Source: Escherichia phage vB_EcoP_SP7
Direction: 5' to 3' (one strand)
Sequence record: MT682707.1
Length of the DNA: 39,305 nt
Part shown: positions 1,044 to 39,305 of the stretch, in pieces
How positions within the stretch are numbered: the stretch's first letter is position 1
How the letters are laid out: the number at the start of each line of letters is the position of its first letter
The notes under the pieces: model-generated
Database searches by the model: none
What the model saw: only the letters and a program-made list of their open reading frames with translations
Told to the model about the DNA's origin: nothing
Position numbers and translations under genes: made by a program

Positions 1044-1066
1044 ACTTAACTATCACTATAGGACTC
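1044..1066 (+). promoter_or_regulatory. Phage-RNAP promoter immediately upstream of the RNAP gene
   Basis: ACTTAACTATCACTATAGGACTC matches the consensus of the other ten promoters; predicted +1 G at 1061. Confidence 0.7.
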
Positions 1067-1135: not shown

Positions 1136-3817
1136 ATGAGCGTCATCTCTATTGACAAACACGACTTCTCTGATGTGTCGAACGCCATTGAGCCGTTTAA
1201 CCTGCTGGCTGACCATTACGGGCAAGACCTTGCAGTTAAACAGCTTCAGCTTGAGCATGAGGCATACACTGAAGGCGAGCGACGTTTCATCAAAAACCTT
1301 GAGCGCCAGACTGAGCGCGGGGAATTGGCAGACAATCAGGTAGCCAAGCCTCTCATGCAGACTCTGGTCCCTAAGATTGCGCAAGCCGTCAAGGAGTGGC
1401 ACGAAGGCGCGGACGGGAAGCTGTCAACTTCTCGCCCTAGCGTAGCGTTCACCATGTTGAGCACTGAAGAGAAGGCCGTCAAGGACCGCTCTCTACGCAT
1501 ATCCTGTGAGTCTGCTGCGGTTATCATACTGAAGGTCATCCTCTCCAAGCTGGTCAAGCCTGAAGGGATACCGATTACACCGATGGCCTCCGCGATAGGT
1601 CGCACACTTGAGGATGAAATCCGCTTCGGTCGCATCCGTGACAAGGAGCAGGAGCACTTCAAGAAGGCGATAGCTGAGAACCTGAACAAGCGCGCCGGGG
1701 CATCCTACAAAAAAGCCTACATGCAAGCGGTTGAGACATCCATGCTGGAGCAAGGACAGCTTGAAGATGCGTGGGGGACTTGGAGTCCGACCGAGGCGGT
1801 ACACGTTGGCATCAAGATGCTTGAGATTGTCATCCAGTCTACGCAACTGGTCGAGCTTAAGCGTTATGGTGCTGGCAATGCAGCGGCTGACGTTGAGATG
1901 GTCCACCTGTCAGACTTCTGGGTCAAGAAGATGGCACAACGTGGATTCAGCCTTGCGGGTATCGCACCAGTCTATCAGCCTTGCGTAGTTCCACCTAAGC
2001 CGTGGACGGGTGTCGTAGGCGGTGGTTACTGGGCTAAAGGTCGCAGACCGTTACCATTGATTCGCTTAGGGTCTAAGTCTGCGGTAGCACGTTACGAAGA
2101 CGTGTACATGCCTGAAGTCTATGACGCTGTGAACATCATCCAGAATACACCTTGGAAAGTTAACAAGAAGGTACTGGACGTGGTGAACATGGTCGAGAAG
2201 CTGAACAACACGCCTATTGATGACATCCCTCAGATGGAACCACTGAAGCCTGAGGACTACGCGGGTGAGACCGAAGAGGACCTCAAGGCATGGAAGAAGG
2301 CTGCTGCTGGTATCTACCGCCGAGAGAAGGCCCGGCAGTCACGCAGATTGTCACTGAGCTTTATCGTTAACCAAGCGAACAAGTTCTCTCAGTTCAAGGC
2401 CATCTGGTTCCCGTACAACATGGACTGGCGCGGTCGCGTCTACGCTGTGCCGATGTTCAACCCTCAGGGTAACGACATGCAGAAGGGTCTCCTGACTCTG
2501 GCAGTCGGCAAGCCCATTGGTGCTGATGGTTTCAAATGGCTGAAGGTCCACGGTGCAAACTGTGCTGGTGTCGATAAAGTCACCTTCGAGGAGCGCATCA
2601 AGTGGGTGGAAGACAACCACGACAACATCATGGCTGCTGCTAAGGCACCGATGGATAGCATTGAGTGGTGGGGCAAGTTAGACTCTCCGTTCTGCTTCCT
2701 TGCGTTCTGCTTCGAGTATGCTGGCGTAATGCACCACGGCCTGTCTTACTCCTGCTCTCTGCCCATAGCGTTCGATGGGTCCTGCTCCGGTATTCAGCAC
2801 TTTAGTGCTATGCTTCGTGACCACATCGGCGGACATGCAGTAAACCTGACGCCTTCCGGTAAGGTCCAAGACATCTACCGCATCGTGTCTGACCGCATTG
2901 AGGAGGAGCTTAAAGTCCTGCTGGTTAATGGCACGGACAACGAGGTGGTCACTCACGAGGACAAGAAAACTGGTGAGATTACCGAACGTCTCAAGCTGGG
3001 TACACGAGAGTTGGCCCGTCAGTGGCTGACTTACGGTATGTCACGCAAGGTCACTAAGCGTTCAGTCATGACTCTGGCCTATGGGTCGAAAGAGTACGGC
3101 TTCGCAGACCAAGTTTACGAGGACATCGTAATGCCTGCGATTGACTCAGGGTCTGGCGCTATGTTCACCGAACCAAGCCAAGCGTCCCGCTTCATGGCTA
3201 AGATGATTTGGGAAGCCGTGAGTGTGACCGTGGTTGCTGCTGTTGACGCGATGAAGTGGCTTCAAGGTGCTGCCAAGCTGCTGGCTGCTGAAGTGAAGGA
3301 CAAAAAGACTGGAGAAATCCTGAAGCCTTGCCTTCCGGTACACTGGGTCACACCTGATGGTTTCCCGGTCTGGCAGGAATACCGCAAGAAGGATACCACT
3401 CGTCTGAATCTGATGTTCTTAGGGTCATTCAACCTTCAGCCTACCGTCAACAAAGGCACGAAGAAGGAGTTGGATAAGCACAAGCAGGAGTCAGGTATTA
3501 GCCCGAACTTCGTCCACTCACAAGATGGTAGCCACCTACGCAAGACTGTAGTCCACACTCACCGCAAGTATGGCGTGATGTCATTCGCAGTGATTCACGA
3601 TAGCTTCGGGACCATCCCGGCTGACGCTGAGTATCTGTTCCGTGGTGTCCGTGAGACGATGGTCGAGACCTACCGAGACAACGATGTGCTGCTTGACTTC
3701 TACGAGCAGTTTGAATACCAACTTCATGAGAGCCAACGCGACAAGCTGCCTGAGCTTCCGAAGAAAGGTAAACTGAATATCGAAGACATCTTGTCTTCAG
3801 ACTTTGCATTCGCTTAA
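1136..3817 (+). CDS. DNA-directed RNA polymerase, single-subunit T7 type (gene 1), 893 aa
   Basis: Collinear with recalled T7 RNAP along its length (e.g. FNLLADHYG, CVVPPKPWTG, FPYNMDWRGRVYAV, HGANCAGVDK, SPFCFLAFCFEYAGV, LPIAFDGSCSGIQHFSAMLRD, SFAVIHDSFGT, C-terminal SDFAFA). Confidence 0.98.
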   Translation: MSVISIDKHDFSDVSNAIEPFNLLADHYGQDLAVKQLQLEHEAYTEGERRFIKNLERQTERGELADNQVAKPLMQTLVPKIAQAVKEWHEGADGKLSTSRPSVAFTMLSTEEKAVKDRSLRISCESAAVIILKVILSKLVKPEGIPITPMASAIGRTLEDEIRFGRIRDKEQEHFKKAIAENLNKRAGASYKKAYMQAVETSMLEQGQLEDAWGTWSPTEAVHVGIKMLEIVIQSTQLVELKRYGAGNAAADVEMVHLSDFWVKKMAQRGFSLAGIAPVYQPCVVPPKPWTGVVGGGYWAKGRRPLPLIRLGSKSAVARYEDVYMPEVYDAVNIIQNTPWKVNKKVLDVVNMVEKLNNTPIDDIPQMEPLKPEDYAGETEEDLKAWKKAAAGIYRREKARQSRRLSLSFIVNQANKFSQFKAIWFPYNMDWRGRVYAVPMFNPQGNDMQKGLLTLAVGKPIGADGFKWLKVHGANCAGVDKVTFEERIKWVEDNHDNIMAAAKAPMDSIEWWGKLDSPFCFLAFCFEYAGVMHHGLSYSCSLPIAFDGSCSGIQHFSAMLRDHIGGHAVNLTPSGKVQDIYRIVSDRIEEELKVLLVNGTDNEVVTHEDKKTGEITERLKLGTRELARQWLTYGMSRKVTKRSVMTLAYGSKEYGFADQVYEDIVMPAIDSGSGAMFTEPSQASRFMAKMIWEAVSVTVVAAVDAMKWLQGAAKLLAAEVKDKKTGEILKPCLPVHWVTPDGFPVWQEYRKKDTTRLNLMFLGSFNLQPTVNKGTKKELDKHKQESGISPNFVHSQDGSHLRKTVVHTHRKYGVMSFAVIHDSFGTIPADAEYLFRGVRETMVETYRDNDVLLDFYEQFEYQLHESQRDKLPELPKKGKLNIEDILSSDFAFA

Positions 3818-6294: not shown

Positions 6295-6507
6295 ATGTCT
6301 AAGACCAAATTGTTTATCGGACAGTGGGACGTATGGGCGGTGACTGATGGCGTCGTTAGAGTCTGCCCTAAGTATCGCTTTATACTTGGCTACTATGAGT
6401 GGCGTGACGCCTACAGGACTGTATCGTCCCTTGAGGCAGACGAAGGGGTGAAGACCTTAGAGGTCAACAACTTCACTGAGAAGTCCGACCCTAAACTATC
6501 ACTGTAG
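6295..6507 (+). CDS. Hypothetical protein (70 aa), gene 1.4-1.6 region
   Basis: ORF with RBS (GGAGG) after the terminator. Confidence 0.5.
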   Translation: MSKTKLFIGQWDVWAVTDGVVRVCPKYRFILGYYEWRDAYRTVSSLEADEGVKTLEVNNFTEKSDPKLSL

Positions 6508-6512
6508 GACCA
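6490..6512 (+). promoter_or_regulatory. Phage-RNAP promoter, variant core CACTGTAGG
   Basis: CCTAAACTATCACTGTAGGACCA; A to G at -3 relative to consensus. Confidence 0.6.
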
Positions 6513-7326: not shown

Positions 7327-7486
7327 TATGACTGAGGTTGAGAAGAAATACATCGTGGAGCTTGAGGGTCGCGTTCAGTCCTTCGAGGTTCCGGTGTACG
7401 CAAAGTCTCTTGAAGAGGCTACCATGAAGTCCCAAGAGTATGAGGACGCTGGGTTTGTGGTCGGACGGATTCGTCCTGAGACCTAA
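7327..7486 (+). CDS. gp2-like inhibitor of host RNA polymerase
   Basis: [14 protein letters not shown]...[10 protein letters not shown] matches recalled T7 gp2 (SFEVPIYAETLDEA...AGFEVTRVRP). AAGGAG sits 8 nt upstream of ATG 7327; the track's 7250 start is a GTG with no RBS. Confidence 0.75.
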
Positions 7487-7504
7487 ACTATCACTGTAGG
7501 ACAG
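7482..7504 (+). promoter_or_regulatory. Phage-RNAP promoter (phi2.5 position), variant core CACTGTAGG
   Basis: CCTAAACTATCACTGTAGGACAG. Confidence 0.6.
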
Positions 7505-11957: not shown

Positions 11958-14129
11958 ATGTTTGACCTTAAGAGTATCTGGGGTTCTGACATCGAGACAA
12001 ACGGTCTCCTTGATACAGTCTCCCAGTTTCACTGTGGGGTACTGATTAACGCCGAGTCGAATGAGACCCTTAAGTATGGGGTAGCTCCGATGGTCGGTAT
12101 CATCGGTGGCTTCAAAGAGTATGTTCATAAAGTGGAAGAGATTGCCGCATCACCTGATGGTATGCTGGTATTCCACAACGGTATCAACTATGACGTCCCT
12201 GCTATTGACAAGCTGAAACGTCTGTACCTTGGGAAACGCTTTAACTTCCCGAAACACAAGATGATTGATACATTGGTGTTGGGACGCTTGATGTATCCCA
12301 ACATTAAGTTCTCAGACATGGGCGCGGTGAAAGCGGGTCGTCTACCACCTAAGATGATGGGACGTCAGTCTCTTGAGGCTTGGGGCTATCGTCTTGGTGA
12401 GATGAAAGGTGAGTACAAACACGATTACGTTGCCAAGTGCAAGGCTGAAGGTATCGAATATAAGGCTGGGGACGAATGGTTGTTCCCATCTCAGGAGATG
12501 CTGGACTATAACGTTCAAGACGTTGTGGTCACACTGGAGTTGTTCAAGAAGTTCCTGACTGACAAGTATTACTTCCAGTCTGAACAGTTCGCTTTCGACC
12601 AGATTTATGCGTTGCGTCTGGAACATGATGCTGCGTGGACCTGTGCGAAGATGGAACGTAATGGCTATCCAATGAACACCGAGATGGTCGAAGGCTTATA
12701 TCGTGAACTCACCGTCAAACGTGCAGAGCTGCTGGACAAGCTGCGCTCGACTTTCGGTAGCTGGTACGCACCAAAGGGAGGCAAAGAGTTCTTCAAGCAC
12801 CCCAGGACAGGCAAGGACCTTCCGAAGTATCCGCGAGTCGTGTATCCTAAAATAGGTGGCATCTTTAAGAAGCCGAAGAACAAAGCTCAACGCTTAGGTC
12901 TTGAACCTTGTGAGCGCGATACGCGAGACACGATGGAGGGAGCACCGTTCACGCCTATAACTTACGTTGAGTTTAATCCGGGAAGCGGAGACCACTTAGC
13001 GAAAGTCCTGATGGAGCGTGGATGGGAGCCTGTAGACTTCACTGACACCGGGAAACCTGTAGTCGATGACGAGACGTTAGAACACGTTAAGTTACAAGAT
13101 GAAGAGGCTCAGGCTTGCGTAGAGCTGGTCCGCGAGTATCTGGTAGTCCAGAAGCGCATCGGTCAGGCGGCTGAAGGTAAGAACGCATGGTTGAAACTTG
13201 TAGGTCCAGACGGACGTATGCACGGTTCAATCAACCCATGTGGTGCAGTAACCGGACGTGCGACCCATAGTACACCAAATATGGCTCAGGTCCCGGCTAA
13301 CGGTGCCCCATACGGTGAGACTTGCCGTGGTGCTTTCGGTGCAGCGTGGAACAAGACTAACGGTGAGCCAGACCCTTGGCTTCAGGTTGGTGTGGATGCT
13401 TCAGGTCTTGAGCTTCGCTGTCTGGGGAACAGAGCGGCTCCGTTTGACGGTGGTGAATACGCCAAGACTGTGGTCGAAGGTGACATCCACTGGGCCAACG
13501 CAGTAAACGCTGGGTTAGCACCTAACGTCCAACGCGATAAGTCTAACCACGACCATGATGCTTTCCGTAATAACGCTAAGACGTTCATCTATGCGTTCCT
13601 GTATGGTGCCGGGGCCGCGAAGATTGGACTGATAGTTGGAGGTGGTAAGAAGGAAGGTTCAGCTCTCATGAAGAAATTCATTGAGGGTACACCAGCCATA
13701 AAGGACCTCAGGGAAGCTGTGCAGAACACGCTCATCTCAGAGTCGAAGTGGGTAGATGGTGAGAACATCGTGAAGTGGAAACGTCGCTGGCTGAAAGGTC
13801 TGGATGGTCGCCGCATTCACATCCGGTCGCCACACTCAGCACTTAACGCATTACTTCAGGGCGATGGTGCGGTAGTCTGCAAGCACTGGATGGTACTTAC
13901 TGAGAAGAAACTTGAAGAGGCTGGTTACGGTAACGGATGGGACGGTGATTTTGCGCTAATGGCTTGGATTCACGATGAATTGCAGATAGCGTGTCGTACT
14001 CAGGAGATAGCAGAAGATGTCGTCCGTATTGCTCAAGAGGCGATGCGTGAGGTCGGACGCTTCTATAACTTCAAGTGTGAACTTGATACGGAGGGTAAGA
14101 TTGGACCAACGTGGAAAGAGTGTCATTGA
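11958..14129 (+). CDS. DNA polymerase (gene 5), family A
   Basis: 3'-5' exonuclease motif DIETNGL and polymerase motifs (VTGRATHS, RDKSNHDHDAFRNNAKTFIYAFLYGAG, WIHDELQ) match recalled T7 DNAP. ATG 11958 has a GGAGG RBS; the track's 11922 start overlaps the RNase III site. Confidence 0.97.
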   Translation: MFDLKSIWGSDIETNGLLDTVSQFHCGVLINAESNETLKYGVAPMVGIIGGFKEYVHKVEEIAASPDGMLVFHNGINYDVPAIDKLKRLYLGKRFNFPKHKMIDTLVLGRLMYPNIKFSDMGAVKAGRLPPKMMGRQSLEAWGYRLGEMKGEYKHDYVAKCKAEGIEYKAGDEWLFPSQEMLDYNVQDVVVTLELFKKFLTDKYYFQSEQFAFDQIYALRLEHDAAWTCAKMERNGYPMNTEMVEGLYRELTVKRAELLDKLRSTFGSWYAPKGGKEFFKHPRTGKDLPKYPRVVYPKIGGIFKKPKNKAQRLGLEPCERDTRDTMEGAPFTPITYVEFNPGSGDHLAKVLMERGWEPVDFTDTGKPVVDDETLEHVKLQDEEAQACVELVREYLVVQKRIGQAAEGKNAWLKLVGPDGRMHGSINPCGAVTGRATHSTPNMAQVPANGAPYGETCRGAFGAAWNKTNGEPDPWLQVGVDASGLELRCLGNRAAPFDGGEYAKTVVEGDIHWANAVNAGLAPNVQRDKSNHDHDAFRNNAKTFIYAFLYGAGAAKIGLIVGGGKKEGSALMKKFIEGTPAIKDLREAVQNTLISESKWVDGENIVKWKRRWLKGLDGRRIHIRSPHSALNALLQGDGAVVCKHWMVLTEKKLEEAGYGNGWDGDFALMAWIHDELQIACRTQEIAEDVVRIAQEAMREVGRFYNFKCELDTEGKIGPTWKECH

Positions 14130-14901: not shown

Positions 14902-15107
14902 GTGAATACTTACGGGTCCTTGCGGCCCTTAAGTCCTGCCCGAAGACCTTCCAGTCCAACTATGTGCGCAACAACGCTGCACTTGTGGCTGAGGCTGCGA
15001 GTCGTGGACATCTAAGCTGCCTGTCTATGGATGGGCGTAACAACGGTGCGTGGGAAATTACTGCTGCTGGCACCAAGTTCCTAAATCAACATGGAGGCTG
15101 TCTATGA
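14898..15107 (+). CDS. gp5.7-like protein (candidate host sigma-S/RNAP inhibitor)
   Basis: MSEYLRVLAALKSCPKTFQSNYVRNNAALVAEAASRGH...GAWEITAAGTKFL strongly resembles my recollection of T7 gp5.7. Confidence 0.6.
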   Translation: MSEYLRVLAALKSCPKTFQSNYVRNNAALVAEAASRGHLSCLSMDGRNNGAWEITAAGTKFLNQHGGCL

Positions 15108-15382
15108 ATCAAGACGTATCAGGACGCGAACTTAAGGTAGGACAGAAGGTTGCTTTCTGTCTGGCTGGAAAATCCTACGCAATGCGTATAGGCGAAGTCG
15201 TCCGGGTAATGCCTAAGACGGTAGCCATCAAGCATAAGACATATATTCGCTGGAAAGGAGCTGCCGAGGAAGTCGAGACGGTACGTGCATTCTCTTCAGT
15301 GTGTATCGTTGAGGAACCGAAAGCTTCATTGATGCCAGCTACGGTCGCTATGGCTACGGGAGGTCTGGACGATGGGTTCTGA
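15104..15382 (+). CDS. Hypothetical protein (92 aa), gene 5.9 position but not gp5.9-like
   Basis: GGAGG RBS then ATG 15104; no similarity to recalled T7 gp5.9. Confidence 0.45.
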   Translation: MNQDVSGRELKVGQKVAFCLAGKSYAMRIGEVVRVMPKTVAIKHKTYIRWKGAAEEVETVRAFSSVCIVEEPKASLMPATVAMATGGLDDGF

Positions 15383-16241
15383 GAAGAAGATAGCTCTGGT
15401 GTTGGATGGTGACTATCTGGTCTTCTCTTCTATGGCTGCTGCCGAGGACGAGACAGACTGGGGTGATGACATCTGGACCATTATCTGCGACCATGAGAAG
15501 GCTCGTCGTATCCTTGAGAACACCATCGCTGAAATCGTTAAGAAGCGTAAGGCGTGGAAAGACGCTAAGATTGTGATGTGCTTTACTGACGATAACAACT
15601 GGCGTAAGGATGTTCTGCCTACTTATAAGGCCAACCGTAAAGGTTCTCGCAAGCCTGTAGGTTACAAGAAGTTCGTAGCCGAGGTGATGGCTGACCCACG
15701 GTTCAACAGTTTCCTGCGTCCTACGCTTGAGGGTGATGACTGTATGGGTATCATCGGGACCCGACCTCAGATTGTAGGATGTGACCATGCGGTGCTGGTG
15801 TCCTGTGACAAGGACTTCAAGACAATCCCGAACTGTGAGTTCTTCTGGTTAACAACTGGTGAAATCCTGAGTCATACGACTGCCGAGGCAGACTACTGGC
15901 ACATGGAGCAGACCATCAAGGGTGACACTACAGATGGCTACGGTGGTATTCCGGGGATGGGTGAGGACACAACTCGTGCGTTCCTTGACGAGCCGTACTA
16001 CTTCGTGCAGGAGAGCCGTGAGCTTAAGACTGGTAAGAATAAAGGCCAGATTAAGACTGAGTGGAAGAAGTATCCGAAGCGTGAAGACATGACGCTGTGG
16101 GACTGCATGGTGACTCTGGCTGCTAAAGCTGGGATGACCGAGGAGGAACTTCTGGTCCAAGCTCAGGTAGCTCGCATTTGTCGAGCCTCCGACTATGACC
16201 CTAAGTCCAAGGAGGTCATCCTGTGGACACCATCCATGTAA
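15372..16241 (+). CDS. 5'-3' exonuclease (gene 6)
   Basis: LVLDGDYLVF, CDHEKARRILE, YKANRK..KPVGY, SCDKDFKTIPNC, TIKGDTTDGYGGIPG, KAGMTEEEL match recalled T7 gp6. Confidence 0.95.
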   Translation: MGSEKKIALVLDGDYLVFSSMAAAEDETDWGDDIWTIICDHEKARRILENTIAEIVKKRKAWKDAKIVMCFTDDNNWRKDVLPTYKANRKGSRKPVGYKKFVAEVMADPRFNSFLRPTLEGDDCMGIIGTRPQIVGCDHAVLVSCDKDFKTIPNCEFFWLTTGEILSHTTAEADYWHMEQTIKGDTTDGYGGIPGMGEDTTRAFLDEPYYFVQESRELKTGKNKGQIKTEWKKYPKREDMTLWDCMVTLAAKAGMTEEELLVQAQVARICRASDYDPKSKEVILWTPSM

Positions 16242-32082: not shown

Positions 32083-34269
32083 ATGTCCACGATTACACAA
32101 TTCCCCACAGGAAACACTCAGTACAGGATTGAGTTCGACTACCTATCCAGAACGTTTGTTGTTGTTACGCTGGTGAATAGCTCTAACCCTACCCTGAACC
32201 GTGTACTGGAAGTTGGTCGAGATTACCGATTCCTTAATCCAACGATGATTGAGATGTTGGCTGACCAATCAGGTTTCGACATCGTTCGTATTCACCGTCA
32301 GACTGGAACTGACTTAGTGGTAGACTTCAGAAATGGCTCAGTGTTGACAGCCAGTGACCTGACCAATGCAGAGCTTCAGGCTATCCATATTGCAGAAGAG
32401 GGTAGGGACCAAACGGTTGACTTAGCGAAGGAATATGCTGATGCTGCTGGTACCTCTGCCGGTAACGCTAAGGATAGCGAGGACGAAGCACGACGAATCG
32501 CTGAGGATATCAAGGCATCTGGTCGAATTGGCTATATTACCCGTCGCTCCTTCGAGAAAGGCTTCAACGTTATAACATGGAACGAGGTACTGCTATGGGA
32601 AGAGGATGGTGAGTATTACCGTTGGGATGGTACGCTTCCAAAGAACGTTCCTGCTGGTTCAACTCCTGAAACTTCCGGTGGGATTGGAGTAGGTGCGTGG
32701 GTTCTCGTAGGTGATGCTTCACTTCGTAGCGCACTAGCTTCTGAAGCAGGGGCATCAATGGTGTCCCGGAACGGCTCACCCCTAGGCAGAATCATTCGTG
32801 CGTCACTCTTCGAATACCTTACCGAATCAGATCAGCAAGCATTACTTACTACTTCTGGAGCAGTAGTTGCAGCGGATTATGCGTTAAAAGCCGCTATAGC
32901 TGCTGGAGTTATGGTCCTTGATATACCACGGAACATGGGGATTATTGAACTTGGTAGAGATCCAGCGACGCTTCCATTGGGGTTCTCGCTTATAGGATGG
33001 GGCTGCCGTCGACCTTATACTGTATCAGATGACAGTAGCTTCCTTAATTGCGGGGTAGTTATCCGCGTAGCAGCTGGGGCAAGTTTTCCTTTTTATTCAA
33101 CTGGTCGTCATGTGTTCCGGGATATTGTTTTTGACGGGCGAGATAAAACAACGTATCTTTTTTATTCCACAGATAGGTATACTGAGTTCAACGGTACTCG
33201 ACTAGAGGGGTGCGGAATTTATCGTTTTGCTATTGGTATTGGTTGGAATATTGGAGGAGTATCAAGGTACATTGCAACAGTAAAAGCTCATTTCTGTTCA
33301 ATATCTGGAAACGGGGACGGAGTTAAGAATTTAATAGACTCTATGATGATTGGTTGCACAATCAATGCCAATGACCGAGGCGTAGCTCTTGTCGGCGGGG
33401 CAAATAGTAACTTTTTCGGAGGATGCCGGAACGAATGGAACGCTGGTGATAACTGGTATGCGTATGAATCAATAGAAAACCAGATTTCAGGTGAACTGTG
33501 CGACAGAGCTGGGCGAGGCGGGGTAGTTGCTGGCAAGGATTCGTCATGGATTGTAACCGGAGTTGTCGTCGCTCGCAGTGGTGCTAATCAACCAATGAAT
33601 GATAACTACTCAGCAAACTTTGTTATTATTGATAACGGTAAAATCGTAATCTCTGGGGTGAGAACCAGAAACGGAGCTAACGAGTGGGGTCAGGGTGGGA
33701 CAAATTCTCCATCGTTTAACGTATCGGTTCTTGGTTCTGGTAATGGGACACTCCTGGTATCTGGAAGTGATATGACCGGTTTTGTTACTTCGGCAATTAA
33801 CCAGAAGGCTCCTACATTAAATAAAGCTATAACCGGAAATCTCGGTATGGATGATGATGTAAATGTTGGAATGTCTCAGGTTATTAAAGGAAGACGGATT
33901 ATTGGTTCACAGTCATCAGGTAGATTGCAAGACGCTGTGGGAGCAACGTTATCATTCACTAAGCCCAATATTGCGCAAGATTTATATGGTACATACGTCA
34001 CCAGAGCCATATTGATTGAGTGTAGAATTGGCAATACTGCACAAGGTGATTATATAAAAATACCTATAGGGGTAAGGCACGAAAACAATTTCTATCTTGA
34101 TATCATCACCAGCGGAATTGTTGCAAGCTCTGGAAGGATTGGCCTTTCAGGAACGGGGGTTACTGTTAGCTTATCTATTGATAGCGCAACGGGTGCCATA
34201 TCAGTCGTGTTAACTAGCGTTGATGGGCTGGTGAGAGATGTTAATGTCTCTTTACTACCATCAATGTAA
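32083..34269 (+). CDS. Tail fiber/tailspike (gene 17): T7 gp17-like N-terminal adaptor domain fused to a non-T7 putative beta-helix depolymerase/receptor-binding module
   Basis: N-terminal ~150 aa match recalled T7 gp17 ([47 protein letters not shown]). The rest is unrelated, Gly/Asn/Ser-rich with beta-helix-like repeats, and its coding DNA (about 33000..34270) is visibly AT-rich relative to the genome. Confidence 0.9.
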
Positions 34270-34387
34270 GAGTGAGAACGGAAGTCGAAACAGAACTGGT
34301 GGTTGTGGAGGTAGAGGCTAACTATACGCTGACCAACGTATGTAATAACTTTGGGTCACGGACGACCCGCTTTAAACTGGAGGTTTT

Positions 34388-34582
34388 ATGATTGAGTTAG
34401 ACTTCAAGAATGAGGTCCTTAAAGCCTCTCCTATCGTCGGGACCGCTGCGGCTGATGGTGCCAGTCGGTTCTTCTTCGGGCTCACACTTAACGAATGGTT
34501 CTACGTTGCAGCTATCGCGTACACCGTTGTCCAGATTGGTGTGCTAGTCTATAAAACGATTAAAGGAGGTGGTAAAACATGA
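34388..34582 (+). CDS. Holin, class II (gene 17.5)
   Basis: DFKNEVLKASPIVGTAAADGASRFFFGLTLNEWFYVAAIAYTVVQIG matches recalled T7 gp17.5. Confidence 0.9.
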   Translation: MIELDFKNEVLKASPIVGTAAADGASRFFFGLTLNEWFYVAAIAYTVVQIGVLVYKTIKGGGKT

Positions 34583-34842
34583 CGCAGATGGACTTAGAGA
34601 AGTTCCTCTTAATGCTGGATACTGAACGTGCTCGACTCATGCTGCAAGACCTGCGGGATGACTCTAAGCGTTCACCTCAGCTCTACAACGCCATTGAGAA
34701 GCTGCTTGCTCGTCACAACTTTGTGTTAAGCAAGGTGTCTGTTGACGAGAAGACTCTGGCTGATATGGAGGCCCTGAACGCAGAGTACGATAAGGTGCTC
34801 TCAGCTACGGAAGATAATGACACTGGGTATGGAGTGCAGTAA
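34579..34842 (+). CDS. Terminase small subunit (gene 18)
   Basis: FLLMLDT..A..ML.DL.....RSPQLYNAI motif and position match recalled T7 gp18. Confidence 0.85.
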   Translation: MTQMDLEKFLLMLDTERARLMLQDLRDDSKRSPQLYNAIEKLLARHNFVLSKVSVDEKTLADMEALNAEYDKVLSATEDNDTGYGVQ

Positions 34843-35402: not shown

Positions 35403-35565
35403 AGTTAAATGCTTAAAGACTGACTCAAATGGGATTCTTGAGGTGGGTTCAGTCTACTGGGTTGACTCGCTTGAAGACATTGACTCCTATGTGCATATTA
35501 GAGGAGGGCGATACATTGGTATGTTCCCATCTAAGTGGTTTGAGCCTAAGGAGGAGAACCATTGA
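35395..35565 (+). CDS. Small hypothetical ORF (56 aa) bridging the Rz stop and the terminase start
   Basis: ATG overlaps the Rz stop; ORF ends 1 nt after the TTG start of gene 19. No T7 counterpart known to me. Confidence 0.3.
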
Positions 35566-37325
35566 GTAAAGACTTAGTGGCGCGTCAGGCGCTAATGACA
35601 GCACGTATGAAGGCAGACTTCGTGTTCTTCCTGTTCGTCCTATGGAAAGCCTTGTCACTCCCAGTCCCGACTCGCTGTCAGATTGACATGGCGAAGAAAC
35701 TATCGGCTGGGGACAACAGGCGTTTCATCCTACAGGCGTTCCGTGGTATCGGGAAGTCCTTCATTACATGTGCCTTCGTGGTCTGGAAGCTATGGAACAA
35801 CCCAGACTTGAAGTTCATGATTGTGTCGGCCTCAAAGGAACGAGCCGATGCGAACTCCATCTTCATCAAGCGAATCATCGACCTCATGCCACAGCTTCAG
35901 GAACTCAAACCTAAGCAGGGACAGCGAGATGCGGTTATCAGCTTCGATGTTGGGCCAGCAAAGCCAGACCACTCACCTTCGGTTAAGTCCGTTGGTATCA
36001 CTGGTCAGTTGACTGGTAGTCGTGCTGACATCCTTATTGCAGATGACGTTGAGGTTCCAAACAACTCAGCGACTCAGGCTGCGCGAGACCGACTGTCAGA
36101 GCTTGTTAAAGAGTTCGACGCTATTCTGAAGCCTGGAGGTACAATCATCTATCTGGGTACTCCTCAGAACGAGATGACCCTGTATCGTGAGTTGGAAGGC
36201 CGCGGGTACACCACTACTATCTGGCCAGCTCGTTATCCACGCGATAAGAAGGACTGGCAGTCTTACGGAGACCGTCTGGCTCCTATGCTTCAGGCAGAGC
36301 TTGAAGAGGACCCTGAGTCCTTCTACTGGCGTCCAACAGATGAGGTACGATTCGATGATACGGACCTGAAGGAACGTGAGCTGTCATACGGTAAAGCTGG
36401 CTTCGCTCTACAGTTCATGCTTAACCCGAACCTGAGTGATGCTGAGAAGTACCCTCTGAAGCTCCGTGACCTTATCGTAGCCGACTTGGACCCAGAGTCA
36501 AGCCCAATGGTCTACCAATGGCTGCCGAACCCTCAGAACAAGCGTGAGGACGTTCCTAACGTTGGACTCATGGGTGACTCGTACCACACGTATCAGACTG
36601 TAGGTTCTGCGTTCAGCTCATACACCCAGAAGATTCTGGTCATTGACCCCAGTGGTCGGGGTAAGGATGAAACTGGTTATGCGGTACTGTACCAGCTCAA
36701 CGGCTACATCTTCGCTATGGAAGTTGGTGGTATGCGTGGTGGATATGAAGACTCTACGCTGGAAGCCTTGGCTAAGATTGGTCGTAAGTGGAAGGTCAAC
36801 GAATACGTCATTGAGGGTAACTTCGGTGATGGTATGTACCTTGAGTTATTCAAGCCTGTTGCGGCCCGTACCCATCCTGCTGCTGTAACTGAAGTGAAGA
36901 GTAAGGGTCAGAAGGAACTCCGAATCTGTGACGTTCTGGAGCCTATCATGGGGTCTCACCGACTTATCGTCAACGCTGCTGCTATCGTCCAAGACTACCA
37001 GACAGCCTCTGACAAGGACGGTGTGCGTAACCCTATCTACTCTCTCTTCTATCAGATGACCCGTATATCTCGTGAACGTGGAGCCTTGGCACACGATGAC
37101 CGACTTGATGCGCTGGCTATCGGTGTACAGTTCTTCGTTGAGTCTATGGCTAAGGATGCCAACAAAGGTGAACGTGAAGTCACTGAGGAGTGGCTGGAGG
37201 AACAGATGGAGAACCCACGGAAGGGCTTCGAGTCCATCCACACTGAGTTCTGGGACAATGGTGTCCGGGTAACTCACGATACGGACGACGAGCCGGGACT
37301 AGGGTCCTACGTTACGTTCCACTAG
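35562..37325 (+). CDS. Terminase large subunit (gene 19); TTG start
   Basis: [45 protein letters not shown] (Walker A), [83 protein letters not shown] match recalled T7 gp19; AAGGAGG RBS before TTG 35562. Confidence 0.97.
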
Positions 37326-37334
37326 CTGAATGAA

Positions 37335-37383
37335 TAACTATAGGTGAAAGCTGCATGAATACGCGGTTAGTAACCTATAGTTA
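37335..37383. repeat. Perfect 11-bp inverted repeat (TAACTATAGGT ... ACCTATAGTTA) between gene 19 and the rightmost promoter
   Basis: Arms at 37335..37345 and 37373..37383, separated by 27 nt; each arm contains the promoter-core-like CTATAGG; CTGTTTT follows at about 37399..37406. Confidence 0.6.
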
Positions 37384-37419
37384 CTACCAGTCTAACCTAC
37401 TGTTTTACAAGGAGTTTGG

Positions 37420-37442
37420 ACTTAACTATCACTATAGGGAAG
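37420..37442 (+). promoter_or_regulatory. Phage-RNAP promoter (phiOR position)
   Basis: ACTTAACTATCACTATAGGGAAG; +1 at 37437. Confidence 0.85.
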
Positions 37443-37621
37443 ACCCCCGGTTACTTATAGTATTACTGTAGTGAATATACATATGCAGACTTTATGCAAG
37501 ACCTTAGGAGGCAGACTCCGAGTTCTTACCTAAGGCTTGCACCGATGGAAGGTGGGTGATATTAATCATAATCCCTCCAATACAGATAGTAAAGACCATA
37601 GATACAGGAGGTATGTAGCAT

Positions 37622-37780
37622 ATGGCAAAGACCAAAGCTGTGCTTAAAGCTCTGGCGACCAACCGAGCTACATACAGGTTTCTTGCTGCTGTTCTACTTG
37701 CTGCTGGCGTTACTGCTGGAAGTCAGTGGGTCGGGTGGGTCGAGACTCTCGTATGTTCTCTGGTCTCTCAGTGCAATTAA
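37622..37780 (+). CDS. Small ORF in the gene 19.5 position (52 aa, hydrophobic core)
   Basis: AGGAGG RBS; downstream of the phiOR-like promoter as T7 gene 19.5; below the ORF-track cutoff. Confidence 0.45.
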   Translation: MAKTKAVLKALATNRATYRFLAAVLLAAGVTAGSQWVGWVETLVCSLVSQCN

Positions 37781-38019
37781 CGCAATCGTGGTAACGATTC
37801 ATGAGCGGAAGACCTAAGGTCAGTACGTGGATAAAGACTCACTCTACTGACCTTAGCTACTGTAGTCAAGGACTTTAGGTAACACCTTAAGAGAAGCTCA
37901 CTTAGGGTCATCCTACTTATTGGTCTATCCTAGTGTCGCCTGACCTACGGTCCTTGACCTACAGTGGCTGTGGCCTACAGTAGTGACGATGAGTTTTGGA
38001 CCAAAAGTTTGAGACCACA

Positions 38020-38217
38020 TCTCACAGTTCAAGAACCTCAAGTCTCCCCATAGGCCCTCTTTCAGTCCAGACCAAAGGCCCTACCCAGTCTATCATAAGG
38101 TTGGACCGATGGTCAATACTTCAGGTCAACGATAGGTATAGGCTATGGCTGGAGGTCAGGACGATAGGTAGGGACTATGGGTCTTCTCTGAGTCTCTATC
38201 TGTATCAGACCTTTGAG
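38020..38217. repeat. Putative terminal-repeat region with the genome left end near 38020 (one copy, as expected in a circularised or concatemer-derived assembly)
   Basis: TCTCACAGT...TCCCCATAGGCCC resembles the recalled first bases of the T7 genome (TCTCACAGTGTACGG...CCCCCATAGGGGG); TCTCTATCTGTA near the distal end resembles the T7 ATCTGTT element; flanked by CCTACAG-type short repeat arrays on both sides as in T7. Confidence 0.45.
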
Positions 38218-38218
38218 T

Positions 38219-38277
38219 CACTACCTACAGTCTAACTACCTACAGTCTAACTACCTACAGTCTAACTACCTACAGTC
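38219..38277. repeat. 15-bp tandem repeat array (CTACCTACAGTCTAA, about 3.7 copies), with further CCTACAG copies to about 38330
   Basis: Directly visible; analogous to the short repeat arrays flanking the T7 terminal repeat. Confidence 0.85.
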
Positions 38278-38436
38278 ATCGACCATCGGTAATGCCGCTA
38301 CCTACAGTCAGAGACCTACAGTTAATAGACACAAAGGATATAGACTTAATGTCTAAGACATGTTAGTCAAAGATTATATCCTCTTACACCATGGGGGGCC
38401 GATGCTAGCTCAATCAATATTATTTCAAATTACCTA

Positions 38437-38465
38437 TTGACTATAGGTATCGACTATGGCTTAAT
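38437..38465 (+). promoter_or_regulatory. Candidate sigma70 early promoter (A1-like)
   Basis: TTGACT, 17-nt spacer, CTTAAT; the spacer contains CTATAGG as the T7 A1 spacer does. Confidence 0.45.
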
Positions 38466-38577
38466 AGCTTCCGTCAACACGACACGGCAACAACCGGATA
38501 GTGAAGACGCCTGGTCATCCCGGTCAAGTAGACAGCCTGATAAGTCATACGAAAAACAGGCAGATGACAGAAAGCAG

Positions 38578-38606
38578 TTGACAAGAAGTAAGACTTAAAG
38601 TAGTAT
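38578..38606 (+). promoter_or_regulatory. Candidate sigma70 early promoter (A2-like)
   Basis: TTGACA, 17-nt spacer (AGAAGTAAGACTTAAAG), TAGTAT; the upstream GTAGACAGCCTGATAAGTC..CGAAAAACAGG closely matches the recalled T7 early promoter region. Confidence 0.6.
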
Positions 38607-38731
38607 GAGTCACCAAGCAGTACAGCGAGCCGGAACTGATAACTACATCGGCTATGCGGAGTGACCAGCGCGAATATCTGGTCTAATGAGTAAGGCGGTA
38701 GGTTACTACAGCAAGCGAGTTAAGAAAGTGA

Positions 38732-38760
38732 TTGACAAGCTGGTTTGACTGTAGTAACTT
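38732..38760 (+). promoter_or_regulatory. Candidate sigma70 early promoter (A3-like), weak -10
   Basis: TTGACA, 17-nt spacer, TAACTT. Confidence 0.35.
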
Positions 38761-38830
38761 ATACGACAAGCAAGATTAGTGAGTCCCAACACTGAAACGG
38801 GATAGCACGGCGACGACAGCCAATGCGAAT

Positions 38831-38843
38831 GCTCTTTAACAAT
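38831..38843 (+). promoter_or_regulatory. boxA-like element in the early leader
   Basis: GCTCTTTAACAAT matches the E. coli rrn boxA core and the equivalent T7 leader sequence (recalled). Confidence 0.6.
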
Positions 38844-38882
38844 CTGGACAAACTCTTAATGTGCGCCGATAGCGACTAACTA

Positions 38883-38914
38883 CAGGGTCTTTGAGTCTAC
38901 ATCTAAAGGCCCTG
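38883..38914 (+). promoter_or_regulatory. Stem-loop upstream of gene 0.3 (R0.3-like candidate RNase III site)
   Basis: CAGGGTCTTT...AAAGGCCCTG inverted repeat about 45 nt upstream of the ocr start. Confidence 0.45.
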
Positions 38915-38960
38915 ACTGATAGTCACTAACATACACAAACAACTTTGAGAGGATATAGCT

Positions 38961-39302
38961 ATGGAACGTAACGCTAACGCATACTATGAGCTGCTGGCTG
39001 CAACTGTTGAAGCATTTAACGAGAGCATTCAGCATGACGAAATAGCTGAAGGTGACGACTACAGCGATGCGCTGCACGAAGTCGTAGAAGGTATGGTTCC
39101 GCATTATTACCACGAGATTTTCACGGTGATGGCTGCTGATGGTATTGACCACGAGTTCGAAGACTCTGGGCTGATGCCTGAGACCAAGGACGTAACGCGT
39201 ATACTACAAGCCCGAATCTATGAGGCGCTTTATAACGACGTGTCTAATAGCTCGGATGTGGTCTGGTTTGAGGATGAAGAGAACGACGAAGAGGACTGCT
39301 AG
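38961..39302 (+). CDS. ocr: Ocr-like DNA mimic, anti-restriction protein (gene 0.3)
   Basis: [43 protein letters not shown] closely matches recalled T7 Ocr; acidic C-terminus; first early gene downstream of the host-type promoters. Confidence 0.9.
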
Positions 39303-39305
39303 TGA

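What the first reader, a model, noticed from the sequence alone, without database searches (positions are those of the whole stretch)
38020..38330. Candidate genome ends and terminal repeat embedded in the window
TCTCACAGT at 38020 and the following bases resemble the recalled first bases of the T7 genome; the region ends near a T7-like ATCTGT element and is followed by about 3.7 copies of a 15-bp tandem repeat (38219..38277). This suggests the physical ends lie here and that the window is a circularised or concatemer-derived representation with a single terminal-repeat copy.
Basis: partly seen in the sequence, partly recalled or inferred. Interest (0 to 1): 0.5.

Follow-up and report, generated by a model that had tools for sequence, protein, structure and literature searches.

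The report
T7-type genome ends in permuted assembly
The flagged stretch is the ordinary, well-known "concatemer junction" of a T7-like (K1F-group) phage: the one retained copy of the 178-bp terminal repeat that marks where the linear virion DNA begins and ends, inside an assembly that was opened at an arbitrary point.

Summary
The window is a complete Kayfunavirus (K1F-like, Studiervirinae) genome written as a circular permutation. Rotated to 38020, it is colinear with phage K1F from K1F base 1 to the base before its right terminal repeat, and a K1F alignment crosses the window's end/start join without a gap. 38020-38197 (178 bp) is the only copy of the terminal repeat (TR).

Both TR boundaries carry motifs shared with phages whose ends are in their linear records (T7, T3, K1F, Vec13, SH4):
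- left: ...AAAA.T.TGA......A|TCTCA(C/T)AGT
- right: TCT.TG.GTC.CT|ATCTGT

ATCTGT (38198-38203) sits where T7 has its RNA-polymerase class II pause site, but here and in 20 of 20 sampled Kayfunavirus junctions the heptamer is ATCTGTA, not ATCTGTT. The 15-bp x 3.9 tandem (38220-38277) lies outside the TR. It belongs to the variable short-repeat array that follows the TR in T7-like phages; relatives have 2-5 copies of the same unit.

The functional region extends left to about 37812: a nearly invariant non-coding block with a hairpin centred 185 nt before the TR (190 nt in T7, 184 in T3). Predicted virion DNA is 39,483 bp. This is a known kind of feature and of low interest.

The parts
34579..34842 (+). 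Terminase small subunit (T7 gp18 homologue), a trans-acting packaging protein
   Evidence: Pfam PF11123 DNA_Packaging_2, E = 4.7e-12. PHROG 1351 terminase small subunit, E = 1e-34.
35562..37325 (+). Terminase large subunit (T7 gp19 homologue)
   Evidence: Pfam PF22530 Terminase-T7_RNaseH-like, E = 2.5e-38. PHROG 38, E = 1.6e-131. About 95% DNA identity to the K1F gene.
37420..37443 (+). Phage-RNA-polymerase promoter in the position of T7/T3 phiOR, reading rightward toward the junction
   Evidence: Exact match to the window's own promoter consensus TAACTATCACTATAGG at 37423-37438. It lies 760 nt upstream of ATCTGT, against 709 nt in T7 and 755 nt in T3. No terminator-like site lies between them.
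37622..37780 (+). Gene 19.5 homologue, the last gene before the right end
   Evidence: 52-aa ORF. PHROG 2193, E = 6e-25. Annotated gp19.5 in PE3-1.
37814..37856 (.). Perfect 12-bp inverted repeat (CTAAGGTCAGTA / TACTGACCTTAG, 19-nt spacer) forming a hairpin centred 185 nt left of the TR
   Evidence: Inverted repeat found. DNA fold -11.3 kcal/mol, z = -3.6. Arms invariant and loop variable across 18 Kayfunavirus junctions. T7 and T3 have a hairpin centred 190 and 184 nt left of their TRs, and their stems differ by compensatory changes.
37857..37967 (.). Longer-range inverted repeat (about 37857-37880 pairs with 37943-37967). It places inverted copies of the CCTACAGT motif opposite the direct ones.
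   Evidence: Pairs I2 and I4. Present in the minimum-free-energy folds (z = -4.3 as RNA, -3.7 as DNA). In PE3-1 an extra G gives ACTGTAGGTCAAGGAC, whose reverse complement GTCCTTGACCTACAGT is present downstream, i.e. a perfect 16-nt match by my reading of the sequence.
37941..37981 (+). Short repeats left of the TR (counterpart of T7's right-end CCTAAAG repeats): 3 copies of CCTAC(A/G)GT
   Evidence: Nearly invariant in relatives.
37988..38019 (+). Conserved block abutting the left cut site. It contains the palindrome TTTTGG-A-CCAAAA (37994-38006) and TGAGACCACA.
   Evidence: Read. Columns AAAA.T.TGA......A before the cut are invariant in the window, K1F, SH4, T7 and T3.
38020..38197 (+). Terminal repeat, the single copy retained (178 bp). 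38020 is the predicted first base of virion DNA and 38197 (possibly up to 38201) the predicted last base.
   Evidence: 93-97% identical to TRs at the ends of linear Kayfunavirus records. Boundaries match T7, T3, K1F, Vec13 and SH4 and the EPr2 record's annotated 179-bp DTR. Only one copy in the window.
38198..38204 (+). ATCTGTA: positional counterpart of the T7 concatemer-junction class II pause/termination signal ATCTGTT, immediately right of the TR
   Evidence: In a sample chosen only by the left-end 18-mer, 22 of 22 loci with enough sequence have ATCTGT 166-240 nt downstream: 20 ATCTGTA and 2 T3-like ATCTGTT. Signal definition taken from bioRxiv 10.64898/2026.02.12.705533 and 10.1101/2021.01.11.426313.
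38209..38322 (+). Short-repeat array right of the TR (counterpart of T7's left-end CCTAAAG repeats): six CCTACAGT cores, including the perfect 15-bp x 3.9 tandem at 38220-38277
   Evidence: Least conserved block of the junction (mean pairwise identity 0.57). The same unit occurs in 2-5 tandem copies in relatives, and other relatives have other 15-16-bp units.
38578..38606 (+). Host sigma-70-type early promoter (A2-like), part of the early promoter cluster upstream of gene 0.3 (38961-39302). This is context showing the left end of the genome starts here.
   Evidence: TTGACA-17-TAGTAT, 10 of 12. T7 and T3 annotate A1-A3 in the same position. Gene 0.3/ocr ORF.

Best explanation
38020-38197 is the single retained copy of the short exact direct terminal repeat of a T7-type (Kayfunavirus) phage, sitting in its concatemer-junction context.

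What the virion DNA looks like (inferred). It is predicted to run from 38020, through the window's end/start join, round to 38197. It carries the 178-bp repeat at both ends and totals 39,483 bp. An assembler, or a real concatemer, collapses the two copies into one, which is why the window reads as a circle opened at an arbitrary base.

How it works. Each step is established for T7/T3 and inferred here from conserved anatomy.
1. Replication leaves single-stranded repeat ends that anneal, giving head-to-tail concatemers with one repeat per junction.
2. Phage RNA polymerase starting at the phiOR-like promoter (about 37437) transcribes through gene 19.5 and the repeat. It pauses just past ATCTGTA (38198-38204).
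3. The paused polymerase-lysozyme complex recruits terminase (gp18/gp19) and a prohead.
4. Cuts are made at the two conserved boundaries. The repeat is duplicated by DNA synthesis so that both neighbouring genomes receive a copy.
5. The hairpin-forming inverted repeat 185 nt to the left (37814-37856) is the likely site of the 'hairpin end' intermediate.

The 15-bp tandem array is outside the repeat. It is part of a fast-evolving, probably dispensable short-repeat region.
For: Shown by computation here:
- Colinearity with K1F and seamless closure of the window.
- One repeat copy only.
- Boundary motifs shared with T7, T3, K1F, Vec13 and SH4.
- 22 of 22 unbiased relatives have ATCTGT at the repeat's right edge, and the right-end copies at contig ends (L047, L050, L058, L059) stop at ...GAGTC(C/T)CT.
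- T7-type terminase large and small subunits are present.
- The phiOR-like promoter is at a T7/T3-like distance with no terminator in between.
- The RNA polymerase is 63% identical to T7's and keeps K172/R173.
- The hairpin sits at a conserved distance in three genera.
- Conservation pattern across 18 junctions: pre-repeat block 0.90 mean pairwise identity, ATCTGTA 1.0, repeat centre 0.59, array 0.57.

From papers:
- Ends of SH3/SH4/SH5 by run-off sequencing, and K1F TR 179 bp (PMC4925675).
- IME-SF2 190-bp DTR (PMC3896407).
- DTR generation and arbitrary assembly start (PMC5557969).
- Polymerase-lysozyme pausing at the concatemer junction and recruiting gp18/gp19 (PMC3276506).
- Repeat duplication and a hairpin intermediate (PMC4281155).
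- In T7, only insertions at positions 142 and 162, at the repeat's right edge, were essential among end loci (PMC11482910).
Against: - No reads or virion DNA for this phage, so the termini are inferred, not observed.
- The heptamer is ATCTGTA, whereas for T7 polymerase any change to ATCTGTT is reported to abolish class II termination. Pausing here is therefore unproven.
- The right end is uncertain by 0-4 nt. SH3 and CR44b contigs extend to ...CTATCT and ...CTA. A run-off read cannot tell a templated A from a polymerase-added one.
- The hairpin has invariant arms and so shows no covariation within the genus. It could act at the RNA level instead.
- The location of the T7 'hairpin end' near 39,587 is my recollection; the paper was not available.
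Confidence: 0.9

Rival explanations
1. The phage has fixed ends with a direct terminal repeat in this region, but its boundaries differ materially (more than 10 nt) from 38020/38197. For example, the repeat might extend into the tandem array or begin further left.
For: Repeat length varies among relatives from 166 to 240 nt. The right boundary in deposited records varies by up to 4 nt. The strongly conserved block continues left of 38020.
Against: In every relative whose linear record or contig carries the repeat at both ends, the repeat starts at TCTCA(C/T)AGT (a few records have 1-2 extra leading bases) and stops within 0-4 nt of the CT before ATCTGT. Length differences come from indels in the repeat's centre. 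The nearest such relative in array type, Vec13, has a 179-bp annotated repeat with the same flanks.
Confidence: 0.06
2. The genome has no fixed ends. It is packaged by a headful mechanism, or is truly circular, and the resemblance to T7 ends is a relic.
For: The window closes on itself with no duplicated end. Many database records of relatives are deposited permuted and without repeats, such as SEA1f.
Against: T7-type terminase (PF22530) and gp18 are present. The genome is colinear with K1F at about 93-95% identity. Relatives tested physically have unique termini. Permuted records are the expected assembler artefact for such genomes. The boundary motifs are under strong conservation, which a relic would not be.
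Confidence: 0.02
3. The match is coincidental: TCTCACAGT, ATCTGT and the tandem repeat are unrelated features with no connection to genome ends.
For: Taken alone, the 9-mer (2 found, 0.75 expected) and TATCTGT (5 found, 5.5 expected) are not beyond chance.
Against: The full 184 nt matches terminal repeats at E = 9e-81. The motifs lie exactly at the repeat boundaries in three genera. The neighbouring genes are 19.5 on the left and 0.3 on the right, as at T7's ends.
Confidence: 0.01

Closest known systems
Terminal repeat and concatemer junction of Escherichia phage K1F and other Kayfunavirus (Vec13, SH3/SH4/SH5, GA2A, CR44b, PE3-1, EPr2)
   Same: - Same sequence family: 90-97% identity over the repeat.
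- Same flanks on both sides and the same ATCTGTA.
- Same CCTACAGT-type repeats.
- Repeat length 178 bp here against 178-191 bp in relatives.
- PE3-1's record even annotates CTATCTGT as 'concatemeric junction'.
   Different: - The window is not any deposited record. The closest is Klebsiella phage SEA1f at 95-97%.
- It has a 1-nt deletion in the repeat relative to K1F.
- It has four tandem copies of the 15-bp unit, where Vec13 has three and SH3 five.
Phage T7 ends: 160-bp terminal repeat flanked by CCTAAAG short-repeat arrays (Dunn and Studier 1983, from my own knowledge; sequence checked)
   Same: - Same architecture: phiOR promoter, gene 19.5, hairpin, short repeats, repeat starting TCTCACAGT, ATCTGT, short-repeat array, early host promoters, gene 0.3.
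- Boundary motifs are shared.
   Different: - The interior of the repeat is unrelated in sequence.
- The repeat core is CCTACAGT instead of CCTAAAG.
- The heptamer is ATCTGTA instead of ATCTGTT.
- No phiOL-type phage promoter lies after the array.
- The hairpin sequence is unrelated.
T7 RNA polymerase class II pause/termination signal at the concatemer junction (CJ; Lyakhov et al. 1997, as cited)
   Same: - Same position, immediately right of the repeat.
- Same orientation relative to phiOR transcription.
- First six bases are identical, and the preceding base is T, which is allowed (A, C or T).
   Different: - The seventh base is A, not T, in all 20 sampled Kayfunavirus junctions.
- The cognate polymerase is only 63% identical to T7's.
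- Pausing has not been tested.
PhageTerm class 'DTR (short), T7 type' (PMC5557969)
   Same: The predicted termini type and the collapsed, arbitrarily opened assembly are exactly the situation that tool was designed for. The EPr2 record's annotation of its 179-bp repeat uses the same wording, 'DTR (short)'.
   Different: No reads were available to run it on this genome.

Membership tests
T7-type short direct terminal repeat / concatemer junction (Studiervirinae) | The same sequence is present at both ends of the linear virion DNA | not testable with these tools
   The window holds one copy only. Reads or virion DNA are needed.
T7-type short direct terminal repeat / concatemer junction (Studiervirinae) | Homology of the candidate repeat to repeats found at both ends of related linear genomes | tested here: met
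   E = 9e-81, 90-97% identity. K1F, Vec13, GA2A, CR44b, SH4 and yong1 match at record base 1-3 and again at a second place; the second place is confirmed to be the other end for K1F, Vec13 and SH4.
T7-type short direct terminal repeat / concatemer junction (Studiervirinae) | Left boundary motif: A|TCTCA(C/T)AGT preceded by AAAA.T.TGA | tested here: met
   Invariant columns in the window, K1F, SH4, T7 and T3.
T7-type short direct terminal repeat / concatemer junction (Studiervirinae) | Right boundary motif: TCT.TG.GTC.CT|ATCTGT | tested here: met
   Invariant columns in the same five genomes. 22 of 22 in the unbiased sample.
T7-type short direct terminal repeat / concatemer junction (Studiervirinae) | Located between gene 19.5 (right end) and the early promoters plus gene 0.3 (left end), with arrays of short repeats on both sides | tested here: met
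   Gene 19.5 at 37622-37780 and gene 0.3 at 38961-39302. CCTACAGT is enriched tenfold and clustered on both sides of the repeat.
T7-type short direct terminal repeat / concatemer junction (Studiervirinae) | T7-type terminase large and small subunits encoded | tested here: met
   PF22530, PF11123, PHROG 38 and PHROG 1351.
T7 RNA polymerase class II pause/termination signal (CJ type) | Strictly conserved heptamer ATCTGTT in the non-template strand | tested here: not met
   The window has ATCTGTA, 6 of 7. The same is true in 20 of 20 Kayfunavirus junctions. For T7 polymerase any base change is reported to abolish the signal.
T7 RNA polymerase class II pause/termination signal (CJ type) | Heptamer preceded by A, C or T | tested here: met
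   T at 38197. Rule taken.
T7 RNA polymerase class II pause/termination signal (CJ type) | Read in the sense orientation by phage polymerase from an upstream phage promoter | tested here: met
   phiOR-like promoter 760 nt upstream on the same strand, with no terminator-like site between.
T7 RNA polymerase class II pause/termination signal (CJ type) | The cognate polymerase actually pauses or terminates 6-8 nt downstream | not testable with these tools
   Needs in vitro transcription with this phage's polymerase. Only supportive evidence exists: K172/R173 of T7 polymerase are conserved, and R173C is reported to lose class II recognition.
Headful (pac) packaging with circular permutation | Headful-type terminase and no conserved exact termini in relatives | tested here: not met
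   The terminase is T7-type. Relatives have unique termini.

The most novel reading that the evidence does not exclude
In the K1F group the packaging-linked polymerase pause signal may have co-diverged with the polymerase. ATCTGTA is fixed in 20 of 20 sampled junctions, against ATCTGTT in T7 and T3. It may work together with a genus-specific, nearly invariant 208-nt cis block (37812-38019), whose hairpin sits at the same 184-190-nt distance from the repeat as the unrelated-sequence hairpin of T7 and T3. If so, class II pause specificity is not universal among T7-family polymerases, and the hairpin-to-repeat distance is a mechanistic ruler for duplicating the repeat.
Probability: 0.3. Interest if true: 0.35.

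Novelty: new member of a known kind. Interest (0 to 1): 0.15.

Why it matters
The main value is practical. It tells an annotator how to orient and complete this genome:
- start the genome at window base 38020;
- append a second copy of 38020-38197 at the right end, giving 39,483 bp;
- do not call genes across 37781-38960. ORFs over the repeat and the array have no family matches, and their frame is broken by indels in relatives.

It also shows that several deposited relatives are mis-opened or mis-arranged (SEA1f, EPr2).

Biologically it adds nothing new in kind. The modest points of interest are the fixed ATCTGTA variant of the polymerase pause motif, the fixed hairpin-to-repeat distance across three genera, and the copy-number variation of the adjacent 15-bp array.

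Tried and rejected
1. CCTACAGT repeats as inverted promoter cores. Two minus-strand hits (6501, 7493) are the reverse complement of variant promoters AAACTATCACTGTAGG. However, T3 keeps T7's CCTAAAG repeats despite a different promoter. The link is therefore not supported.
2. Coding potential of ORFs across the junction (37996-38235, 79 aa; 38213-38356, 47 aa).
   - No Pfam or PHROG match.
   - A 1-nt indel against K1F inside the first ORF.
   - Repeat length in relatives varies by non-multiples of 3.
   - Rejected as genes, although some GenBank records annotate 'hypothetical proteins' there.
3. Rfam scan of 37300-39305 at E <= 1: nothing.
4. Intrinsic terminators in 37300-39305: none.
5. A phiOL-type phage promoter after the array: none within 3 mismatches, in the window or in K1F.
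6. A second repeat copy or an assembler overlap at the window ends: none.
7. Primary papers not held by the library: Chung, Nardone and Hinkle 1990, and Scholl and Merril 2005, and a review on phage termini. The mapped position of the T7 hairpin end therefore rests on my memory.
8. One literature search found nothing, and two calls failed on term length.

Full report

Yes. TCTCACAGT lies at 38020-38028 and ATCTGT at 38198-38203. Tandem Repeats Finder reports a perfect 15-bp repeat, 3.9 copies, at 38220-38277. The continuation, TCTCACAGTTCAAGAACC, is closer to T3's TCTCATAGTTCAAGAACCC.

The short words alone are not beyond chance:
- TCTCACAGT: 2 found against 0.75 expected.
- TATCTGT: 5 found against 5.5 expected.

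The context is what makes them significant:
- The 184 nt at 38020-38203 match 228 phage records, with best E = 9e-81. In many linear records the match is at base 1-3 and again at the other end.
- The octamer CCTACAGT occurs 17 times against 1.7 expected. Eight of these, all on the + strand, flank the repeat.

**2. What the window is**

It is a complete genome of a K1F-like phage (Kayfunavirus, Studiervirinae).
- The closest deposited record is Klebsiella phage SEA1f, at 95-97% identity.
- Rotated to start at 38020, the window is colinear with K1F from K1F base 1 to base 39526, the last base before K1F's right terminal repeat.
- One alignment block (K1F 1606-1769) crosses the window's own end/start join (...GCTAGTGA|TGGTAACTT...) without a gap.
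- The window has no prefix/suffix overlap. Its longest exact repeat is the 28-nt self-overlap of the tandem array, and there is only one copy of the repeat.

So the window is a circular permutation with the two terminal copies collapsed into one. This is what assemblers do with such genomes (PMC5557969).

**3. Where the ends are**

I extracted the terminal repeat from linear records as the longest prefix that equals the suffix:

| Phage | Repeat length (bp) |
|---|---|
| T7 | 160 |
| T3 | 231 |
| K1F | 178 (179 in the literature) |
| Vec13 | 179 |
| SH4 | 191 |

In all five, the repeat begins TCTCA(C/T)AGT and ends ...GTC(C/T)C(T), with the next bases being (T)ATCTGT.

Five-genome alignments give these invariant columns:
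- Left cut: AAAA.T.TGA......A|TCTCA.AGT.
- Right edge: TCT.TG.GTC.CT|ATCTGT.

To avoid selecting for the right-hand motif, I collected IMG/VR loci by the left-end 18-mer only.
- All 22 loci with enough downstream sequence have ATCTGT 166-240 nt downstream.
- Four of the copies that lie at contig right ends (L047, L050, L058, L059) stop at ...GAGTC(C/T)CT. Two others run 1-4 nt further.

Physical support exists for relatives:
- SH3, SH4 and SH5 ends came from run-off Sanger sequencing of phage DNA (PMC4925675).
- IME-SF2 (40,387 bp) has a 190-bp repeat from read pile-ups (PMC3896407). That equals the TCTCACAGT-to-ATCTGT distance in a contig of that same length.
- The EPr2 record annotates a 179-bp 'DTR (short)' with the same limits.

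By homology the window's repeat is 38020-38197 (178 bp). The right end is uncertain by up to about 4 nt, and the virion DNA is predicted to be 39,483 bp.

**4. Anatomy around the repeat**

From left to right on the + strand:
- Terminase small and large subunits of the T7 type.
- A phage promoter identical to the window's own consensus at 37423-37438.
  - It lies 760 nt upstream of ATCTGT, against 709 nt for T7 phiOR and 755 nt for T3.
  - No terminator-like site lies between.
- Gene 19.5 at 37622-37780.
- A perfect 12-bp inverted repeat at 37814-37856. Its DNA hairpin folds at -11.3 kcal/mol, z = -3.6.
- A longer inverted repeat, 37857-37880 pairing with 37943-37967.
- Three CCTAC(A/G)GT repeats at 37941-37981.
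- A conserved block, 37988-38019, that contains the palindrome TTTTGG-A-CCAAAA.
- The repeat itself, followed by ATCTGTA.
- An array of six CCTACAGT cores at 38209-38322, which includes the tandem.
- Host-type early promoters and gene 0.3/ocr at 38961-39302.

No Rfam family matches. ORFs over the repeat and the array match no protein family. Their frame is broken by a 1-nt indel against K1F.

**5. Conservation**

In a MAFFT alignment of 18 distinct Kayfunavirus junctions, mean pairwise identity was:

| Block | Mean pairwise identity |
|---|---|
| 3' end of gene 19.5 plus spacer | 0.58 |
| Non-coding block 37812-38019 | 0.90 (137 of 208 columns invariant) |
| First part of the repeat (38038-38080) | 0.91 |
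| Centre of the repeat | 0.59 |
| Last 38 nt of the repeat | 0.85 |
| ATCTGTA | 1.0 |
| Array after the repeat | 0.57 |

- The sequences were selected by the 18-mer at 38020-38037, so that stretch is invariant by construction.
- The hairpin's arms are invariant and its loop varies.
- The array is a copy-number-variable locus. The same 15-bp unit is present in 2 (L064), 3 (Vec13), 4 (window) and 5 (SH3) tandem copies. Other relatives carry other 15-16-bp units with CCTACAGT or CCATAGGT cores.

**6. A shared hairpin position**

- T7 and T3 have a hairpin after gene 19.5 whose stems differ by compensatory swaps: TGAT/ATCA against TAGT/ACTA, and AG/CT against GT/AC.
- Its centre lies 190 nt (T7, base 39588) and 184 nt (T3) left of the repeat.
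- The window's hairpin has an unrelated sequence but lies 185 nt left of the repeat.
- This fits the 'hairpin end' intermediate of T7 concatemer processing. I saw the title of Chung, Nardone and Hinkle 1990 in reference lists, and the concept is summarised in PMC4281155.
- I recall, but could not verify, that this intermediate maps about 190 bp left of the repeat. The paper is not held.

**7. Mechanism**

The steps below are established for T7/T3 and inferred here.
1. Replication intermediates anneal through the repeat into concatemers with one repeat per junction.
2. Phage polymerase from phiOR pauses at the class II signal at the right edge of the junction. Together with lysozyme, it recruits gp18/gp19 to start maturation and packaging (PMC3276506; signal described).
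3. Cutting is multi-step because the repeat must be duplicated by DNA synthesis.

A T7 insertion screen found the genome ends dispensable except at positions 142 and 162. These are the conserved right edge of the repeat and the ATCTGT (PMC11482910). That agrees with the conservation pattern here and suggests the tandem array is not essential.

One defining feature of the T7 class II signal is not met. The heptamer is ATCTGTA, in the window and in 20 of 20 Kayfunavirus junctions, while for T7 polymerase any change is reported to abolish the signal. The cognate polymerase is 63% identical to T7's and keeps K172/R173. I therefore file the motif as working like the junction pause site, not as a proven member of that class.

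**8. Rivals**

- Fixed ends but with different boundaries. This remains possible at the level of a few nucleotides, but is unlikely beyond that.
- Headful packaging or true circularity. This is contradicted by the terminase type and by relatives' unique termini.
- Coincidence. This is excluded.

**9. Verdict**

The feature is the standard T7-type concatemer junction in a new Kayfunavirus genome, so interest is low.

Corrections to the finding:
- The repeat is only 38020-38197.
- The tandem array is outside it.
- The functional region extends left to about 37812.
- ATCTGT is the polymerase pause-site position, in a variant form.

Physical confirmation needs reads or virion DNA, as set out under the decisive next steps.

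Noticed in passing
window 37812-38019: This 208-nt non-coding block left of the terminal repeat is far better conserved across 18 Kayfunavirus genomes (0.90 mean pairwise identity, 137 invariant columns) than the adjacent 42-nt stretch to its left (the last bases of gene 19.5 plus the spacer, 0.58). It looks like a cis-acting packaging region.
   Followed up: partly
window 37814-37856; L004 468-515 (T7 39567-39614); L010 374-421 (T3 37773-37820): A hairpin-forming inverted repeat is centred 185, 190 and 184 nt left of the repeat in three genera. The T7 and T3 stems differ by compensatory changes, and the Kayfunavirus hairpin has an unrelated sequence.
   Followed up: yes
L001 (OM256482.1, Providencia phage EPr2) 1-679: The record annotates the 179-bp repeat at 1-179 and again at 501-679, with right-end sequence (gene 19.5 tail and pre-repeat block) in between. 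It looks mis-arranged rather than a true structure.
   Followed up: partly
L043/L044 (OR287805.1, Klebsiella phage SEA1f): The closest relative's 'complete genome' record is opened about 28 nt inside the terminal repeat and carries no repeat at its ends. It is another permuted assembly.
   Followed up: yes
window 38204-38960; L005 (K1F) 180-1113: No phiOL-type phage promoter lies between the repeat array and gene 0.3 in the window or K1F (up to 3 mismatches in the window; a degenerate consensus regex in K1F). T7 (405) and T3 (366-388) annotate one there.
   Followed up: partly
window 1047-1062 (RNA polymerase gene 1136-3817); K1F 2477: A perfect phage promoter sits about 75 nt upstream of the phage RNA polymerase gene, so the polymerase could transcribe its own gene. 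It is conserved in K1F.
   Followed up: partly
window about 32718-34301: This stretch has no K1F match and lies where K1F's gene 17 tail protein sits. The SEA1f match that spans it lists a 'tailspike protein with depolymerase domain' among its features. This suggests a receptor-binding module swap.
   Followed up: no
window about 13967-13974 (K1F 14930-15535): The roughly 600-bp insertion that splits K1F's DNA polymerase gene (HNH endonuclease, joined CDS) is absent from the window.
   Followed up: no
window 38116-38087 (minus strand, inside the repeat): A leftward sigma-70-like site is present: TTGACC-18-TAGACT with TG upstream of the -10. It is comparable to the leftward A0 promoter annotated inside T3's repeat.
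   Followed up: no
window 6493-6508 and 7485-7500: Two phage promoters carry ACTGTAGG instead of ACTATAGG. Their reverse complement is the CCTACAGT octamer that is repeated around the terminal repeat. A functional link was considered and not supported.
   Followed up: partly
window 38220-38277; L029, L045, L064: The same 15-bp unit, ACTACCTACAGTCTA, occurs in 2, 3, 4 and 5 tandem copies in different relatives. The array behaves as a copy-number-variable locus and could serve as a strain marker. Short-read assemblies may misjudge its copy number.
   Followed up: yes
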